Virus record (IMG/VR): IMGVR_UViG_3300049215_000772
Coordinates: 64,001 to 128,000 of that record
Length of the DNA stretch: 64,000 nt
Strand: one strand, 5' to 3'
Source of the DNA: a virus
Lineage: Duplodnaviria > Heunggongvirae > Uroviricota > Caudoviricetes
The notes below the pieces were generated by a model. It worked only from the letters and a program-made list of their open reading frames with translations. It had not been told where the DNA came from and did not search any database. Shown here in pieces: positions 51,840-56,506 of the stretch. Position 1 is the stretch's first letter; each line of letters opens with the position of its first letter. The position numbers and the translations under genes were made by a program.

Positions 51840-52345
51840 CAATCAGCAGAACCCCGGTGAAGGACTCGCTCGTGGTCTTCACTGAAGGGGCCAAAGTCAA
51901 TTTCAAGCTGTTCGGTTTCGTCGCCCCGGTGTTCGGATGTAACATCAACGGCGAACCACGACTTGTTCCGGTCAAGATTGAAAACCAGGCAGACAAGGAA
52001 AAGTTCCGGCAGCAAATCCTGGCGATGATCGCCGATGGATCGCTGTCCGAATTTGTTTTCGTCTCTGAAGCCTGGATGGTGTCAACCAGCGACCCCCAGG
52101 AAGCCAAGGTCTGGCTGGCCGAGCATGGCAGTCTCGAAGGCTTTCCGGGCCGGCGAGAGGCTGTTCAGGTGTTTTATTGTTCTGCAAACGAGGAAATCTG
52201 CTATACAGCTTGGATAGAACGGGGTAGTATACCAGCAACTCTCAGCGAGTGGGAAGTCCAGACCCGTTCCGGCCATTTCACACTCCCTGACCTGGAAACC
52301 CGATTCCAAGGGCTGTTCGCACAAGGCAAGGCAGGAAATAACTGA
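51836..52345 (+). CDS. hypothetical protein
   Basis: ATGA overlap; FVFVSEAW motif. Confidence 0.7.
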   Translation: MTISRTPVKDSLVVFTEGAKVNFKLFGFVAPVFGCNINGEPRLVPVKIENQADKEKFRQQILAMIADGSLSEFVFVSEAWMVSTSDPQEAKVWLAEHGSLEGFPGRREAVQVFYCSANEEICYTAWIERGSIPATLSEWEVQTRSGHFTLPDLETRFQGLFAQGKAGNN

Positions 52346-53385
52346 TGGCAGCTACCCAAAAGGAAATCGTTGATGCTGTGGCGTCGGCGCTCCAGCACAA
52401 AAACCTCTCACAGCAAGCGGTGGCCGTTATCCACCGCTCGACGGAGAAGGTGTTGAAACGCATCCAACAGGATGTCGGGGCGCAGTTCAAGGAAGATGGC
52501 GATGATGTCGTTGAAGACTTCTGCAAGAACCTGGCGACCAAGCTAGGGCAGATGAGCCAGAACTGGTACGACGGCATTCGCAACGAACTCATCGTGTACC
52601 CTGAAGGAACCCGGTTCATCTACCGTGACGGCACTACTGTTGTCATCGTTGTGGAGCAGCAGCCCCAGGTCCGCACCATCAACGTCAACGGCACGATGCA
52701 CCACCTGGCGTTCCCCTACGTCGTGTTCATCATGGGGTTCAACAATGGAGCCTGGAACGGGGCGCTGGACGTGGCCATTCGCACCAGGCCGCTGACCAGC
52801 CTCGACGACCCGCTTTGTTCGATTGGTCTTCCCAACATCAGCGGCTACCGGGTGTGCATGGGCGATTTCCGCAACAACCCGAAGACCAACATGACGGAAC
52901 AAACGCAGGCCGTCATCGGTTCCTTCTGGCAAAGCCAGTTCGGGGGCGACATTCGCAATCTCCCTAGTTGGGAGCGGCAGACGAAGCGTGACCCTTTGTA
53001 CGTCCTGCACGAGAACTACACCCAGGTCGGCCCGCTTCGTCAGGTCGTGTCGGCGGTAAGCCGCAATGCCGGCGAACGCCCCGATATTGTCAATACGCTC
53101 AAACAGGAGATCATCACGGCGGTCGGCACTATCGGAGCCGAGATTCAGAAGACTATGCTGACCCTCGATATGGTCAAGCAGAACAAGGAAAAGGTCCATA
53201 TCGAGACGCTGGATGAAATTCTGAAGGAAATCATCGTCCAGGCGTATGCCGAACTGTGGGAATATCTCCAGGCCCAACTCCAGCGGGAGCGTGCCAAGAT
53301 GCAGCAGGAGATGGTTTCCCTCCTCAAGCGGAAGACCGGCTACTCGGACGAGTACGAGAAGACTACCAAATGGGGCAACGGATGA
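52345..53385 (+). CDS. prokaryotic E2 (family D-like) protein, copy 1
   Basis: LAFPYVVF, L...PL.SLDDPL...LPNI....VCMG (putative catalytic Cys), FWQSQF. Confidence 0.75.
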   Translation: MAATQKEIVDAVASALQHKNLSQQAVAVIHRSTEKVLKRIQQDVGAQFKEDGDDVVEDFCKNLATKLGQMSQNWYDGIRNELIVYPEGTRFIYRDGTTVVIVVEQQPQVRTINVNGTMHHLAFPYVVFIMGFNNGAWNGALDVAIRTRPLTSLDDPLCSIGLPNISGYRVCMGDFRNNPKTNMTEQTQAVIGSFWQSQFGGDIRNLPSWERQTKRDPLYVLHENYTQVGPLRQVVSAVSRNAGERPDIVNTLKQEIITAVGTIGAEIQKTMLTLDMVKQNKEKVHIETLDEILKEIIVQAYAELWEYLQAQLQRERAKMQQEMVSLLKRKTGYSDEYEKTTKWGNG

Positions 53386-54371
53386 TGGTGACTTCCAATG
53401 CTGTTCGTCAAAGCCTGGAACGCATCCGGGCCGAGGCTATCCGAAAAGCCCGCCTTGGTATCGCTGAGAAAAAGTCCAAGGTACGGGTCGATCTTGTTGA
53501 GGAAGCTGTACAAAAACTGCAACAGGGTGTTCGTGGCCCTGTTGCAGTTGAAGTTTCCAACAAGGTCTGTCGGAAAGTCGTGGATCGCTTTCTGACAATC
53601 TTCCAAAATGGCCTCGACGAGTTTCGGGAGGCGCTGGCAGAACGTACCACCTTTCCTAGTGCCGCCAGGACCAGCAACAACGAGATCATGGTTTACCCGG
53701 AAGGTTGCCGGTTCATGTACACGGACCAGCGCAGCCAGGGCGTAATGGTTATCGAGCAGCAGCCGCAGGTTCGCACGGTTTTGCTTTCGGACAGGACGAA
53801 GAAGCATATTCCACTGCCGTATGTTATCTTCATTGTCCAATACACTGTCAGACATGGGAATTACAACTACGCCGGCCTCCGGGTTGGGTTTCGTAATAGC
53901 CCAATTAAAAGTCTGGAAGACCGCCTATATCTTCCTTCATTGCCCAACTTCACCGAGCATCAGGTGTGCATGGGATCATATGAGGGGGTGACTGGTGGGG
54001 ATACGCCGAGCGACGTTGCCGACGACATTATCGGCACGTTCTGGCAAAGCGTATTCGGCAGCGGGTTCCACGGTTTCAAGTATGGGAACTCGAATATCTC
54101 TTCTTGGACTTCCTGGGAAGCTATTGCTGGGAACAACCCGCTCAATATCCTGAAGGCAAAATGGCGGCAAGGGAAGCTGTTGTCGGACTTGATCTCGCAA
54201 TACAGTGAGGCCAATTCCGGCGACGGGCGGCAGGTGAACGATTTTGTTCAGAAAACGTGGAACCGGCTCGCCAACGAACTGGATGCTGAAGAAGCGCAAA
54301 TACTCATCCAGGGAGCCGCCCAGGAGATTTTGGCCCAACTTCTCAATGATCTGGCTTTACAACCTCAATGA
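53382..54371 (+). CDS. prokaryotic E2 (family D-like) protein, copy 2
   Basis: IPLPYVIF, PIKSLEDRLY...LPNF....VCMG, FWQSVF. Confidence 0.75.
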   Translation: MMVTSNAVRQSLERIRAEAIRKARLGIAEKKSKVRVDLVEEAVQKLQQGVRGPVAVEVSNKVCRKVVDRFLTIFQNGLDEFREALAERTTFPSAARTSNNEIMVYPEGCRFMYTDQRSQGVMVIEQQPQVRTVLLSDRTKKHIPLPYVIFIVQYTVRHGNYNYAGLRVGFRNSPIKSLEDRLYLPSLPNFTEHQVCMGSYEGVTGGDTPSDVADDIIGTFWQSVFGSGFHGFKYGNSNISSWTSWEAIAGNNPLNILKAKWRQGKLLSDLISQYSEANSGDGRQVNDFVQKTWNRLANELDAEEAQILIQGAAQEILAQLLNDLALQPQ

Positions 54372-54384
54372 TCGGTAGTAGAAT
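54356..54384 (+). promoter_or_regulatory. sigma70-type early promoter
   Basis: TTTACA-17 nt-TAGAAT. Confidence 0.8.
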
Positions 54385-54428
54385 CCACACCATGACAAGC
54401 TGATATGGCTTCAGCAAGAAGGGAGACA

Positions 54429-55375: not shown

Positions 55376-56083
55376 ATGGCGAAGAAACCGAAGGGGTTGA
55401 AGGTGAAGGTTGTTGGGTGTGGTGGTATCGGCTCCTGGCTGATCGACCCGCTTTGCACCCTTCTCAACTTCAGCACGATTCCGTCCATCGAAGTCGGCCT
55501 GATCGACGGCGACACCTACGAGGAACGAAATCGAGAGCGCCAGAACTTCGACGTGATCGGAGCGAAGGCGACGATCACCGCCGCCAGGCTGAAGGATCGG
55601 TTCCCCCGGCTCTTCATCCAGGATCACCCGGCGTATTTGAACGACGCCAATATCATTTCCCTCATTCGGGAACACGATGTTGTGGCTGTTTGTGTTGACA
55701 ACCACAAGACCCGGAAACTCATCAGTGACCGGGCCGAGGAACTGGACAACATCATCGTCGTCAGCGGGGGCAATGAACTCACGGACGGCAACGTGTTGGT
55801 CCATATCCGACGTGACAGCGAAAACGTCACGTTGCCTCTTGCCAACAAGTACCACCCGGAACTCCAGAATCCTGGGGACAAGAACCCCGGCGATGACAAG
55901 GAACATGGGTGCCAGGTGATGGCGGCGGCAGAACCGCAATTGGTGGCGACCAACTTCAACGTCGCCTCCATCATGCTGAATGAACTGTACAAGATCGTGA
56001 CCAATCACGACCGGGTTGGCAAGGTGAGCGAGATCAACTTCGACATCCTCACCGGCAACGCCAAAGCACAGCTTCGGAAGTGA
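55376..56083 (+). CDS. ThiF/E1-like activating enzyme
   Basis: VVGCGGIGS, DGDTYEERN.ERQ, K, CVDN..TR, distal GC. Confidence 0.92.
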   Translation: MAKKPKGLKVKVVGCGGIGSWLIDPLCTLLNFSTIPSIEVGLIDGDTYEERNRERQNFDVIGAKATITAARLKDRFPRLFIQDHPAYLNDANIISLIREHDVVAVCVDNHKTRKLISDRAEELDNIIVVSGGNELTDGNVLVHIRRDSENVTLPLANKYHPELQNPGDKNPGDDKEHGCQVMAAAEPQLVATNFNVASIMLNELYKIVTNHDRVGKVSEINFDILTGNAKAQLRK

Positions 56084-56120
56084 CGGACTGACCAACACTC
56101 AACAAGAAGGGAGATACCCA

Positions 56121-56453
56121 ATGGCAGGACAGAAGCAGGAAAAAGGGCAGGGCTTCAGCAAGTTGCCCGCCGCAACGGAAACCGTGTCGGCCAGTGGCCT
56201 GACGGCCCCGGACGCCAGCGCACTCCTGGCGAAACTGGACGGCAAGGTGAAGGTTATCCACGGAGCCAACGACGACACGTTCGACGGCCTCGTGGGTCAG
56301 AAGGTTTCGACGGTTCGGGCGAGCCTTGTTGACGCTTTCAACATCCCCGGCGATGCTTTGGCGCTGGTCAACGGCCAGCAGGTGGACAACACCTACTCGT
56401 TGCAGCAAAACGACGTGCTGGAGTTCATCAAGCAGGCCGGCGTCAAGGGCTAA
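56121..56453 (+). CDS. ubiquitin-like (beta-grasp) protein with N-terminal extension
   Basis: ALVNG..VD..Y.LQQNDVLEFIKQAGVKG, C-terminal Gly. Confidence 0.85.
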   Translation: MAGQKQEKGQGFSKLPAATETVSASGLTAPDASALLAKLDGKVKVIHGANDDTFDGLVGQKVSTVRASLVDAFNIPGDALALVNGQQVDNTYSLQQNDVLEFIKQAGVKG

Positions 56454-56471
56454 GGTCCGAGTCCGTCACTC

Positions 56472-56506
56472 GCCGGGGGTGTGGTGACACACACCCCCGG
56501 CTTTTT
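56472..56506 (+). terminator. rho-independent terminator closing the Ubl operon
   Basis: GCCGGGGGTGTG-N6-CACACCCCCGGC-TTTTT. Confidence 0.9.

What the first reader, a model, noticed from the sequence alone, without database searches (positions are those of the whole stretch)
52345..56506. Complete phage ubiquitin-like conjugation system: E2, E2', JAB, E1, Ubl
Seen: two paralogous E2-D-like proteins (both keep VCMG) with long helical N- and C-terminal extensions, a JAMM peptidase, a ThiF-type E1 and a Ubl ending in ...AGVKG. An internal early promoter (54356) separates the E2 pair from JAB-E1-Ubl, and a terminator follows. Established: this gene set matches prokaryotic Ub-like and PRTRC-type operons; host Bil and CBASS Cap2/Cap3 systems use related chemistry against phages. 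Inference: the phage conjugates its own Ubl to host or phage targets, or removes host Ubl tags. The duplicated extended E2s may serve as substrate-selecting E2/E3 modules.
Basis: partly seen in the sequence, partly recalled or inferred. Interest (0 to 1): 0.88.

Follow-up and report, generated by a model that had tools for sequence, protein, structure and literature searches.

The report
Huge-phage ubiquitin-like conjugation cassette
A very large uncultured phage from moss microbiomes carries a complete, intact-looking ubiquitin-style protein-tagging kit (tag, activating enzyme, two transfer enzymes, trimming protease). The kit sits at the same spot in related huge phages; in the papers I could search, such kits are experimentally known only as bacterial anti-phage defences, and what this one tags is unknown.

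Summary
Five co-directional genes encode two paralogous E2-like proteins, a JAB/JAMM peptidase, a minimal ThiF-type E1 and a beta-grasp Ubl ending in AGVKG. A conserved promoter-like site lies before JAB and a strong hairpin terminator follows Ubl.

All catalytic signatures are invariant across relatives: the E2 Cys, the JAMM motif, the E1 adenylation motifs plus one Cys, and the Ubl C-terminal Gly. In 105 Ubl homologues that keep the motif, 45 end exactly at that Gly and 55 carry 1-16 variable residues after it. This is the pattern of a tag that a protease matures.

The order ligase, sigma, 169-aa protein, E2a, E2b, JAB, E1, Ubl recurs in five further distinct huge-phage contigs (E2a 44-74% identical). 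Related IMG/VR records reach 527 kb, and ENA contigs 602 kb. The E2 duplication predates that clade.

By HMM and fold the system is a distant relative of the PRTRC / "6d" operons, but it fails their curated cut-offs and class-specific features. It is not Bil or CBASS.

Best reading: a working E1-E2 cascade used by the phage itself, targets unknown. I found no paper on a phage-encoded cascade, but this scan has flagged other phage Ubl cassettes on other DNA. Verdict: a new variant of a known kind.

The parts
51177..51839 (+). Phage ECF-type sigma factor. It is context only, but its stop overlaps the start of the next gene (ATGA).
   Evidence: TIGR02937 at 64 bits and Sigma70_r2 / Sigma70_ECF. 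It has the same position in the related huge-phage loci. The overlap was read.
51836..52345 (+). Conserved 169-aa protein of unknown function ('up166'). It is coupled to E2a by a 1-nt stop/start overlap (TGATG) and may be a sixth component.
   Evidence: Present directly upstream of E2a in L002, L004, L007, L008, L009 and L010 at 46-65% identity. The overlaps are conserved. No Pfam, NCBIfam, PHROG or PADLOC hit. The Atlas places it in phage-rich clusters of hypothetical proteins, some labelled lambda Ea47-like. Absent from the non-megaphage cassettes.
52345..53385 (+). E2a: an E2/UBC-like core (about residues 80-245, catalytic Cys171 at 52855-52857 in ...PN-x6-VCMG) between long N- and C-terminal helices.
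   Evidence: Prok-E2_D at 20.3 bits, with 21 of 35 orthologues hitting at E<=1e-3. AF2 model. AFDB fold matches to PRTRC system protein B and UBC core domain proteins. Cys171 is invariant in 35 orthologues.
53382..54371 (+). E2b: a faster-evolving paralogue of E2a. Its Cys is at 53967-53969 (Cys200 counted from the ATG at 53370). The start overlaps the E2a stop (ATGA).
   Evidence: BLASTP to E2a gives 31% identity, E 3e-31. The Cys is invariant in all E2b orthologues. E2b forms its own supported group in the tree (98/95). On the same 49-kb contig the E2b orthologue is 43% identical where the E2a orthologue is 74%.
54356..54384 (+). Conserved sigma-70-like promoter-like site (TTTACA-17-TAGAAT). 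Its -35 lies in the last codons of E2b.
   Evidence: 10 of 12 matches. The same element sits at the same junction in L002, L004, L007, L008, L009 and L010. There are two exact pattern matches in the window (also at 42101) against 0 expected.
54405..55313 (+). JAB/JAMM metallopeptidase with an N-terminal extra domain and a Gly-rich tail. Motif residues are E101, H154-x-H156-x7-S164-x2-D167.
   Evidence: Prok-JAB at 25.9 bits and PRTRC_A at 35 bits. All motif residues are invariant in 8 diverse sequences and were checked.
55376..56083 (+). Minimal E1 (ThiF/MoeB-type adenylation domain, 235 aa). It has GCGGIG, D44, R55-Q56, K64, D108-N109 and an invariant Cys179. It lacks a rhodanese domain and CxxC zinc motifs.
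   Evidence: ThiF at 83 bits and PRTRC_ThiF at 65 bits.
56121..56453 (+). Ubl: a disordered N-terminal stretch of about 40 aa, a beta-grasp at 42-103, and a flexible tail ending in AGVKG-COOH (Gly110 at 56448-56450).
   Evidence: AF2 model. Foldseek hits to SUMO1, ubiquitin, Caldiarchaeum Ub and Mth1743. The profile weakly hits ubiquitin in the PDB. G107, K109 and G110 are invariant in 41 sequences.
56472..56506 (+). Intrinsic terminator-like hairpin (12 bp, 10 GC) followed by TTTTT.
   Evidence: Strong hairpins also follow the Ubl gene in L002, L005, L007 and L008. RNA-library contigs do run across it.

Best explanation
This is a phage-owned ubiquitin-like conjugation and deconjugation cascade that works during infection by a huge phage. 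The proposed steps are as follows.

1. The 110-aa Ubl exposes Gly110. In this phage the gene ends at that Gly. In about half of its relatives a short tail must first be cut off, most likely by the JAB peptidase. (The tails are shown; the cutting enzyme is inferred.)
2. The minimal ThiF-type E1 adenylates Gly110 with ATP and probably takes the Ubl onto its invariant Cys179. (The motifs are shown; the chemistry is inferred.)
3. The Ubl passes as a thioester to Cys171 of E2a and/or the equivalent Cys of E2b. (The invariant Cys in an E2-like fold is shown; the transfer is inferred.)
4. The E2s pass the Ubl to lysines of protein targets. Their conserved long helical arms act as the built-in substrate- or partner-binding part, since no separate E3 is present. 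(Inferred.)
5. The JAB can also reverse the mark. (Inferred.)

The cassette occupies a fixed, syntenic place next to the phage sigma factor and NAD-ligase. It has been kept through deep divergence of the clade. I therefore think it serves the phage's own infection programme, by modifying host or phage proteins, rather than being a swappable accessory defence island. Targets are unknown.
For: **Intact catalytic residues across relatives.**
- The E2 Cys is invariant in 35 E2a orthologues, in all 16 mixed E2a/E2b/E2c/bacterial sequences, and in 45 of 46 E2 cores from 30 loci.
- The JAMM motif E...HxHx7Sx2D is invariant.
- The E1 has GxGGxG, D44, R55-Q56, D108-N109 and Cys179 invariant, aligned to the MoeB motifs.

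**Ubl.**
- It has a beta-grasp fold like SUMO and ubiquitin.
- G107, K109 and G110 are invariant.
- Of 105 homologues with the motif, 45 end at the Gly and 55 carry 1-16 variable residues after it (listed).

**E2 fold.** The core matches PRTRC system protein B (E 2.9e-8) and UBC core domain proteins (E 4.2e-6, TM by hit 0.62) in AFDB clusters. Prok-E2_D is hit by 21 of 35 orthologues.

**Conservation and synteny.**
- The same gene order occurs in five further distinct huge-phage contigs, with 1-4-nt stop/start overlaps (adjacent in L010) from the 169-aa protein through E2b; the sigma-to-169-aa overlap was read in the window.
- The promoter-like site before JAB is conserved.
- E2a and E2b each form a supported group, so the duplication is old and both copies were kept.
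- The helices hold as many invariant positions as the core.

**Phage setting.**
- This is an IMG/VR virus record. Relatives are 527 kb (CheckV 100%) and 340 kb (69%), with terminase-like matches.

**Weaker hints.**
- Predicted E2a-E2b contact, weak support only: score 0.35 against a best control of 0.00. The mark was reached by 58 of 80 solved complexes and 2 of 110 mismatched pairs. At 0.60 or under it was reached by only 7 of those 80 and by both mismatches. The runs agree in at least 42% of contacts, and partner pLDDT is at least 64. My own alignments were used, so the counts hold only roughly.
- Contigs from moss and plant metatranscriptome libraries match parts of E2a, JAB, E1 and Ubl with no differences. 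This is a hint of expression only, because DNA carry-over was not excluded.
Against: - No conjugate, thioester or cleavage has been observed. Everything rests on sequence, models and synteny.
- E2a itself is below Pfam's gathering score, and E2b has no Pfam hit.
- Foldseek against solved structures gave only weak E2 rows (UbcH7 and Rad6, E above 0.1, TM by target 0.3-0.4).
- The E2 core has six strands before the Cys loop rather than the canonical four.
- The canonical E2 His is absent. Only the Pro-Asn before the Cys resembles HPN, and in most E2b orthologues it is Pro-His.
- The equivalence of Cys179 to the E1 crossover-loop Cys rests on my knowledge of MoeB and ThiF, not on a tool alignment.
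- A similar E2-JAB-E1-Ubl order occurs in many MAG contigs, including chromosome-sized ones of CPR bacteria. The module is therefore mobile and could be an accessory (defence-like) unit.
- The host and the targets are unknown.
Confidence: 0.62

Rival explanations
1. The chemistry is the same, but the role is that of a defence or exclusion system. The phage carries the cassette to tag proteins of competing phages or mobile elements that enter the same cell, as host Bil systems tag phage tail proteins. It would not be used to modify its own or host proteins for its own replication.
For: - The experimentally studied bacterial relatives I read about (Bil; CBASS Cap2/Cap3) act in anti-phage defence (read in PMC11601603 and PMC13276650).
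- The E2-JAB-E1-Ubl module is scattered across unrelated MAGs.
- The E2 shows lineage-specific expansions: a third paralogue in L004, L008 and L009, and 4-5 tandem copies in L023.
- E2b evolves fast. This pattern is expected under an arms race.
Against: - Fixed synteny with the sigma factor and ligase persists across phages whose E2a is only 44-47% identical. This is unlike a hot-swapped defence island.
- No PADLOC defence model is hit except weak Cap2-type matches on the E1 domain.
Confidence: 0.22
2. The module is a sulfur-carrier or other non-conjugating ThiS/MoaD-ThiF type system. The E1 adenylates the small protein to form a thiocarboxylate for cofactor or thionucleoside synthesis, and the 'E2' proteins do something else.
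For: - The E1 is a minimal MoeB/ThiF-like domain, and its best solved relatives are Uba4 and MoeB.
- One Ubl homologue is labelled 'sulfur carrier protein ThiS' by JGI.
- The tail ends in a single Gly rather than Gly-Gly.
Against: - There is no rhodanese domain.
- No thiamine, molybdopterin or tRNA-thiolation genes are nearby.
- Two E2-like genes with an invariant Cys and a JAB are inseparable from E1 and Ubl in every locus examined.
- The nearest named HMMs are PRTRC ones, not ThiF or MoeB equivalogs.
Confidence: 0.05
3. The E2-like proteins do not relay the Ubl to other proteins. They could be the substrates themselves, or helical scaffolds whose conserved Cys serves another role. The Ubl would then be attached directly by the E1, as in archaeal SAMP systems, or to a non-protein target.
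For: - E2-less conjugation exists in archaea (SAMP/UbaA; PMC4895103 is listed; the mechanism is from my own knowledge).
- The E2 core departs from the canonical UBC layout and lacks the classical His.
- Solved-structure matches to E2s are weak.
Against: - The Cys sits in a conserved Pro-Asn/His-x6-8-Cys loop followed by a conserved helix (FWQS), and it is invariant across about 45 very diverse sequences.
- Fold matches to UBC-core and PRTRC-B models have probability 1.00.
Confidence: 0.08
4. The region is not phage DNA. It would be a bacterial chromosomal island, and the 'provirus' call would be an artefact.
For: - IMG/VR labels the 134-kb record a provirus with 27% completeness.
- The window carries metabolic genes such as IDO, a TPP enzyme and an aldehyde dehydrogenase.
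- A close relative lies in a Neisseriaceae MAG contig.
Against: - All genes are on one strand, with 7 tRNAs.
- The syntenic relatives are IMG/VR records of 340 and 527 kb, the latter rated 100% complete by CheckV, with terminase-like matches.
- The metabolic genes themselves match PHROG families.
Confidence: 0.03

Closest known systems
PRTRC cassette / operon class 6d of Iyer, Burroughs and Aravind 2006 (PMC1779556): Ubl + JAB + E1-like + E2-like + alpha-helical protein on plasmids and ICEs
   Same: - It has separate genes for a single-domain Ubl ending in Gly, a JAB with an extra N-terminal domain, a short ThiF-type E1 without rhodanese, and a Prok-E2_D-type E2 lacking the classical His.
- PRTRC_A and PRTRC_ThiF are the best NCBIfam hits.
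- PRTRC system protein B models are among the fold matches of the E2 core.
   Different: - Scores are far below the curated cut-offs: 35 against 102 bits, and 65 against 145 bits.
- There is no ParB and no hit to PRTRC B, C, D, E or F.
- The E2 has no invariant His after the Cys.
- JAB-N has no invariant Arg/Trp pair.
- The E2 is duplicated and carries long helical arms.
- The carrier is a huge phage, not a plasmid or ICE.
Bil (BilABCD, class 6e) bacterial ISG15-like anti-phage systems
   Same: It has the same four activities (Ubl, E1, E2, JAB deubiquitinase) encoded as separate genes, and is a conjugation cascade shown experimentally to tag proteins (preprints 10.1101/2023.09.04.556158 and 10.1101/2023.09.26.559546, listed; review PMC13276650).
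   Different: - No sequence-model link was found.
- The Ubl here has one beta-grasp domain with a disordered N-terminus, not a di-Ubl.
- There are two extended E2s.
- The system is phage-encoded and syntenic with phage core genes, not host-encoded.
Type II CBASS Cap2 (E2-E1 fusion) and Cap3 (JAB)
   Same: It uses E1 adenylation plus E2 Cys chemistry, with a JAB that trims and reverses. The weak PADLOC 'E1-E2' hits fall on the E1 domain (13-19 bits).
   Different: Here E1 and E2 are separate proteins, a dedicated Ubl exists, and there is no CD-NTase or effector gene.
Archaeal SAMP / UbaA / HvJAMM1 and ThiS/MoaD-ThiF/MoeB systems
   Same: It has a minimal E1 related to MoeB and Uba4, and a beta-grasp tag with a C-terminal Gly that also resembles Mth1743.
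   Different: Those systems have no E2 and double as sulfur carriers. Here two E2-like genes are obligatory neighbours and no sulfur-transfer domain is present.
Lambda/T1 tail-assembly Ubl (TAPI) with JAB-containing TAPK
   Same: It is a phage-encoded beta-grasp protein with a C-terminal Gly next to a JAB peptidase (PMC1779556).
   Different: That module has no E1 and no E2 and lies in tail genes. This cassette has both enzymes and lies beside the sigma factor and ligase.

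Membership tests
Prokaryotic E1/E2/JAB/Ubl conjugation operons (generic, Iyer 2006 classes 6a-6e) | Small beta-grasp protein with a conserved C-terminal Gly | tested here: met
   The AF2 model is a beta-grasp at residues 42-103. Foldseek hits SUMO1, Ub and Caldiarchaeum Ub with TM by target 0.64-0.73. G110 is invariant.
Prokaryotic E1/E2/JAB/Ubl conjugation operons (generic, Iyer 2006 classes 6a-6e) | E1-like adenylation domain with intact nucleotide-binding and catalytic motifs and no rhodanese | tested here: met
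   ThiF at 83 bits. GxGGxG, D44, R55-Q56 and D108-N109 are invariant and aligned to MoeB. The 235-aa protein has no further domain.
Prokaryotic E1/E2/JAB/Ubl conjugation operons (generic, Iyer 2006 classes 6a-6e) | JAB/JAMM peptidase with E...HxHx7Sx2D encoded next to the E1 | tested here: met
   Prok-JAB at 25.9 bits against a cut-off of 25. All motif residues are invariant.
Prokaryotic E1/E2/JAB/Ubl conjugation operons (generic, Iyer 2006 classes 6a-6e) | E2/UBC-fold protein with a conserved catalytic Cys | tested here: met
   AFDB fold matches to UBC core and PRTRC-B models. Prok-E2_D is hit by 21 of 35 orthologues. The Cys is invariant. Caveat: E2a's own score is 20.3 bits, below the cut-off of 25.
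PRTRC system (NCBIfam TIGR03734-03742) / class 6d | Proteins reach the curated cut-offs of the PRTRC_A and PRTRC_ThiF models | tested here: not met
   PRTRC_A scores 35.4 bits against a cut-off of 101.8. PRTRC_ThiF scores 65 bits against 144.75.
PRTRC system (NCBIfam TIGR03734-03742) / class 6d | ParB-related protein and PRTRC B, C, D, E, F proteins in the cassette | tested here: not met
   None of the ten proteins between 49.8 and 57.0 kb hits any NCBIfam model of these at E<=0.01.
PRTRC system (NCBIfam TIGR03734-03742) / class 6d | E2 with an absolutely conserved His downstream of the Cys (PMC1779556) | tested here: not met
   The invariant columns of the E2 alignments contain no His. Instead a Trp in the FWQS helix is invariant.
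PRTRC system (NCBIfam TIGR03734-03742) / class 6d | JAB-N domain with strictly conserved Arg and Trp (PMC1779556) | tested here: not met
   An N-terminal domain of about 100 aa exists, but its invariant columns are P31, Y36, G43, G61, L65, K78, F90, F91 and V94. There is no Arg or Trp among them.
Bil (BilABCD) | Sequence-model match of E1, E2, JAB and Ubl to defence-system models | tested here: inconclusive
   PADLOC gave no hit for E2a, E2b, JAB or Ubl, and only Cap2-type 'E1-E2' hits for the E1. I could not verify which Bil models that 2023 library holds.
Type II CBASS (Cap2/Cap3) | E2-E1 fusion protein with an adjacent CD-NTase and effector | tested here: not met
   E1 and E2 are separate genes. 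No nucleotidyltransferase or effector was found in the neighbourhood.
ThiS/MoaD-ThiF/MoeB sulfur-carrier systems | Link to a rhodanese or sulfurtransferase, or to cofactor-biosynthesis genes, and absence of an E2 | tested here: not met
   There is no rhodanese domain. The ThiF and MoeB equivalog scores (28-46 bits) are far below their cut-offs of 159-647 bits. Two E2-like genes are always adjacent.

The most novel reading that the evidence does not exclude
A clade of huge phages (about 0.5 Mb or more) runs its own ubiquitin-like cascade as a core part of infection. JAB, E1 and Ubl are made from a host-type promoter. A pair of dedicated E2s, translationally coupled to the phage sigma factor and a 169-aa protein, forms a heteromeric E2/E3-like machine on long helical arms. 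That machine tags specific host proteins (for example transcription or defence proteins) or phage proteins. This would be the first offensive, virus-encoded full E1-E2 cascade in bacteria, mirroring the host Bil defence.
Probability: 0.3. Interest if true: 0.85.

Novelty: new variant of a known kind. Interest (0 to 1): 0.62.

Why it matters
**Gap in the literature.** Ubiquitin-like conjugation in bacteria has so far been shown experimentally for host defence operons (CBASS type II, Bil, Bub). The PRTRC/6d branch has no demonstrated function in the papers I could search. The reviews I read describe such systems only as host-encoded.

**What a phage-owned cascade would imply.** A complete cascade kept at a fixed place in the genomes of some of the largest known phages suggests that viruses of bacteria use protein tagging themselves, as many eukaryotic viruses manipulate ubiquitin.

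**Testable material it provides.**
- A small Ubl with a defined cleavage and activation site (AGVKG).
- A 235-aa E1.
- Two E2s with built-in helical arms that may replace an E3.

**Size of the family.** The E2 profile finds 3,464 cluster representatives at E<=1e-3, 662 of them at E<=1e-30. Among the 150 listed, most matches span nearly the whole helix-core-helix profile. Function learned here would therefore annotate a large uncharacterised family.

Tried and rejected
**Close-relative and family searches with no result.**
- blastn of the cassette against 50,697 GenBank phage records: no match.
- PHROGs: no family for E2a, E2b, JAB or Ubl, and only an unnamed family for E1.
- Our own scan index by sequence: no look-alike.
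- Phage_capsid (PF05065): not found in the three virus records. No conclusion drawn.

**Structure and PDB searches that did not help.**
- Foldseek of the full-length E2a model against the PDB: nothing at E<=0.001, with E2s (UbcH7, Rad6) only among weak rows.
- hmmsearch of the E2 profile against PDB sequences: no hit.

I used the JAB alignment instead.
- One paper search and one in-paper search failed on the minimum term length.

**Literature.** I searched for PRTRC with phage, phage-encoded with ubiquitin-like, JAB and ThiF, jumbo and huge phages or megaphage with ubiquitin, and phage-encoded with BilA. No paper on a phage-encoded E1/E2/JAB/Ubl cascade turned up. Subscription journals are not covered.

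**Pfam on long E2 relatives.** The N-terminal 300 aa of the 700-790-aa relatives matched nothing, so there is no clue to substrates.

**RNA libraries.** Parts of the stretch had no contig cover (sigma, the 169-aa gene, E2b, most of E1). This says nothing about expression.

**Readings considered and dropped.**
- The 169-aa protein as the 'alpha-helical protein' of class 6d: it has no detectable relation and is absent outside the megaphage clade.
- The downstream 145-aa CxxC...CxxC protein as an E3: it lies after the terminator and is not conserved in relatives.

Full report
**1. What is there**

Between 51.2 and 56.5 kb of the window all genes run on the + strand. The finding's five ORFs are real:
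- E2a, 52345-53385, 346 aa.
- E2b, ending at 54371. Its most likely start is 53382, because that ATG overlaps the E2a stop as ATGA.
- JAB, 54405-55313.
- E1, 55376-56083.
- Ubl, 56121-56453, ending AGVKG followed by a stop.

A 12-bp GC-rich hairpin with a T-run follows at 56472-56501.

Two upstream genes belong to the same tightly packed block. One is an ECF-type sigma factor (51177-51839). The other is a 169-aa protein of unknown function (51836-52345). The sigma-to-169-aa junction is ATGA, the 169-aa-to-E2a junction is TGATG, and the E2a-to-E2b junction is ATGA.

**2. Identity of each part**

*E1.*
- It scores ThiF at 83 bits. PRTRC_ThiF (65 bits) is its best NCBIfam hit, below the cut-off of 145.
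- In eight diverse sequences the nucleotide loop GxGGxG, D44, R55-Q56, K64 and D108-N109 are invariant. They align to the corresponding MoeB motifs in 1jw9.
- One further Cys, C179, is invariant. From my own knowledge of MoeB and ThiF, it lies where the crossover-loop Cys sits. No tool alignment reached that far.

*JAB.*
- It scores Prok-JAB at 25.9 bits (cut-off 25) and PRTRC_A at 35 bits (cut-off 102).
- The complete JAMM signature (E101, H154, H156, S164, D167) is invariant.

*Ubl.*
- Pfam gives only a sub-threshold TGS hit.
- A model built on 41 homologues shows a disordered N-terminus, then a beta-grasp at residues 42-103.
- Foldseek matches SUMO1, ubiquitin, Caldiarchaeum ubiquitin, NEDD8 and Mth1743, with TM by target 0.64-0.73 and rmsd 2.1-3 A.
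- The family profile even picks ubiquitin out of the PDB, weakly (E 0.004 for di-ubiquitin, 0.24 for the monomer).

*E2a.*
- It scores Prok-E2_D at 20.3 bits, under the cut-off of 25. Still, 21 of 35 orthologues hit that family at E<=1e-3, best 8e-9.
- The model has a confident core (80-245, pLDDT above 90) flanked by long helices 21-72 and 248-338 of lower confidence.
- Against AlphaFold DB clusters the core matches 'PRTRC system protein B' (E 2.9e-8 and 6.2e-6) and 'UBC core domain-containing protein' (E 4.2e-6, TM by hit 0.62).
- Against solved structures the match to E2s is weak.

*E2b.* It is a paralogue of E2a (31% identity, E 3e-31).

*The E2 cysteine.* It sits in a Pro-Asn (or Pro-His) - x6-8 - Cys loop ahead of a conserved FWQS helix. 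It is invariant in 35 E2a orthologues, in 16 mixed paralogues, and in 45 of 46 E2 cores from 30 loci.

**3. The tail of the Ubl**

Of 116 homologues, 105 keep a G-[VTER]-[KRA]-G motif. Of those, 45 end exactly at its last Gly and 55 continue for 1-16 residues with no conservation (for example F, N, KMPWL, SPLSSKQASR). Five carry longer C-terminal extensions.

A conserved Gly followed by disposable tails is how ubiquitin-type modifiers are made as precursors. It gives the adjacent JAB an obvious first job and argues that the free carboxylate of that Gly is what matters.

**4. Conservation and setting**

*The record.* The window is part of a 134-kb IMG/VR virus record rated 27% complete. Its E2a protein is also recorded on a 673-kb contig.

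*Synteny.*
- The order NAD-ligase, (0-2 genes), sigma, 169-aa protein, E2a, E2b, JAB, E1, Ubl recurs in contigs of 602, 299, 340, 104, 78 and 49 kb (L004 and L008 carry identical proteins, so five are distinct).
- Identities to the window proteins are E2a 44-74%, E2b 27-48%, JAB 56-67%, E1 55-79% and Ubl 55-72%.
- A more distant 527-kb record, rated 100% complete by CheckV and carrying a terminase-like gene, has sigma, E2, E2, JAB, E1, Ubl.

*E2 history.*
- In a maximum-likelihood tree of E2 cores, E2a (96/93) and E2b (98/95) each form one supported group. The duplication is therefore older than this clade, and both copies were kept.
- E2b evolves faster. On one 49-kb contig the E2a orthologue is 74% identical and the E2b orthologue 43%.
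- Some relatives add a third paralogue between ligase and sigma (L004, L008 and L009).

*Promoter.*
- The promoter-like site at 54356 (TTTACA-17-TAGAAT) is found at the same E2b/JAB junction in all six fetched relatives (five distinct), although E2b protein identity there is below 50%.
- The exact pattern occurs twice in the window against none expected.
- JAB-E1-Ubl is therefore probably a transcription unit of its own, read by a sigma-70-type holoenzyme. The E2 pair is coupled to the phage sigma factor. The timing ('early') is inference.

**5. Wider family**

*MAG loci.*
- A scan of one genome per species with the JAB alignment found 22 loci.
- At least 18 of them have an E2-like ORF within 6 kb of JAB and E1, and most have the order E2-JAB-E1-Ubl.
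- They lie in MAGs of Patescibacteria, Methylomirabilota, Gammaproteobacteria, Acidobacteriota and others. One Heimdallarchaeota bin is included.
- Some of these contigs are chromosome-sized (0.96 and 1.1 Mb), others may be mis-binned phage.
- One NCBI contig has an AAA ATPase in front of a single E2.
- One gammaproteobacterial contig has 4-5 tandem E2 paralogues (L023).

*Size of the E2 family.*
- A profile of the E2 family finds 3,464 representatives of 50%-identity clusters at E<=1e-3, and 662 at E<=1e-30.
- Among the 150 listed, most match almost the whole helix-core-helix profile, and some have about 300 extra N-terminal residues that match no Pfam family.

**6. Comparison with known systems**

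The gene content is that of class 6d of Iyer et al. 2006 (PMC1779556), which NCBIfam calls PRTRC. But the curated cut-offs are missed by a wide margin. ParB and the other PRTRC proteins are absent. Two class-specific markers named in that paper are not found: an invariant His after the E2 Cys, and an invariant Arg/Trp in JAB-N. I therefore treat it as a distant sister, not a member.

Bil and CBASS share the chemistry but not the architecture. The sulfur-carrier reading is unlikely, because there is no rhodanese, there are no cofactor genes, and the E2s are obligatory.

**7. Mechanism and role**

The most likely mechanism is the standard relay:
1. The JAB exposes or recycles the Gly.
2. The E1 adenylates it and probably forms a thioester at C179.
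3. The E2 Cys accepts the Ubl.
4. The Ubl is transferred to lysines.

No E3 is encoded. The helical arms of the E2s carry as many invariant positions as the core, so they are the best candidates for partner or substrate binding.

A prediction of an E2a-E2b complex gave weak support only:
- The score was 0.35 against a best control of 0.00.
- The mark was reached by 58 of 80 solved complexes and 2 of 110 mismatched pairs.
- At 0.60 or under it was reached by only 7 of those 80 and by both mismatches.
- The runs agree in at least 42% of contacts, and partner pLDDT is at least 64.
- My own alignments were used, so the counts hold only roughly.

The fixed syntenic position argues for a role in the phage's own programme. 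The mobility of the module, the E2 expansions and fast E2b evolution keep a defence or exclusion role open.

**8. Habitat and expression**

The stretch is held in full by moss metagenome runs. Contigs from four plant and moss metatranscriptome libraries of one study match parts of E2a, JAB, the JAB/E1 junction, Ubl and the gene after the terminator, without a single difference. One contig runs across the terminator. This is a hint that the genes are expressed in situ. DNA carry-over was not excluded, and contigs give no strand or ends.

**9. Novelty**

I found no paper describing a phage-encoded E1/E2/JAB/Ubl cascade. The search does not cover subscription journals.

Within this scan, phage-borne Ubl cassettes have been flagged repeatedly on other DNA, including a PRTRC-like one. 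None of them is a sequence look-alike of this one.

What is particular here:
- the huge-phage core setting;
- the retained E2 pair (or trio) with helical arms, coupled to a sigma factor;
- the split promoter architecture;
- the clear precursor-tail evidence.

Verdict: a real feature, ordinary in chemistry, and a new variant of a known kind, with untested but well-defined predictions.

Noticed in passing
window 7140-8288, 16260-17891, 21203-22705 (also 40461-41507): The phage region carries metabolic genes: an indoleamine 2,3-dioxygenase (IDO, 226 bits), a TPP-dependent enzyme with all three domains, an aldehyde dehydrogenase (424 bits) and an NAD-epimerase/dehydratase. A TPP decarboxylase plus an aldehyde dehydrogenase next to a Trp-cleaving enzyme, in a moss-associated phage, might bear on indole or auxin-type metabolism. 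That link is pure speculation.
   Followed up: partly
window 42101-42129 and 54356-54384: Two near-identical promoter-like sites (TTTACAACCTCA ... GGT-GTAGAAT) were found, against none expected by chance. This may be the phage's own class of host-RNAP promoters. The -35 of the second is embedded in the conserved Ala-Leu-Gln end of E2b.
   Followed up: partly
L008:4727-5806, L009:4724-5842, L004:4670-5806: Some related huge phages carry a third E2-like paralogue (359-372 aa, Cys kept as VCC) between the NAD-ligase and the sigma factor. The window has unrelated genes at that spot.
   Followed up: partly
L023:2-5977: A 34-kb contig binned as a gammaproteobacterial MAG has four to five tandem E2-like paralogues directly upstream of JAB-E1-Ubl. 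This is an extreme case of E2 multiplication in this family.
   Followed up: no
L003:3765-8238: An NCBI MAG contig with ribosomal protein genes S6 and S18 and SSB nearby has an AAA ATPase (580 aa), one E2-like gene, JAB, E1 and Ubl. This is a cellular-looking version with an ATPase partner.
   Followed up: no
whole record: The window's E2a and Ubl proteins are also recorded on a 673,178-bp contig, and relatives on contigs of 602 and 527 kb. If that contig is all phage, this is among the largest phage genomes. A 70-kb contig with a 58%-identical JAB is binned in a Neisseriaceae MAG, which is at best a weak host hint.
   Followed up: no
window 56524-56961: The first gene after the terminator encodes a 145-aa protein with two CxxC pairs about 40 residues apart, so it is zinc-ribbon-like. 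It is not conserved after the Ubl gene in relatives.
   Followed up: partly
window 55190-55313: The JAB ends in a Gly-rich, low-complexity tail with aromatic residues (…WWNKLGFGGGFLG). Similar Gly/Trp-rich tails of varying length occur in relatives. Their purpose is unknown.
   Followed up: no
window 60398-63977: ARAGORN finds seven tRNA genes, including Ile(AAT), one with a four-base anticodon call (agtt), two Met(CAT) and two Lys(TTT). Other notes of this scan already cover them.
   Followed up: no
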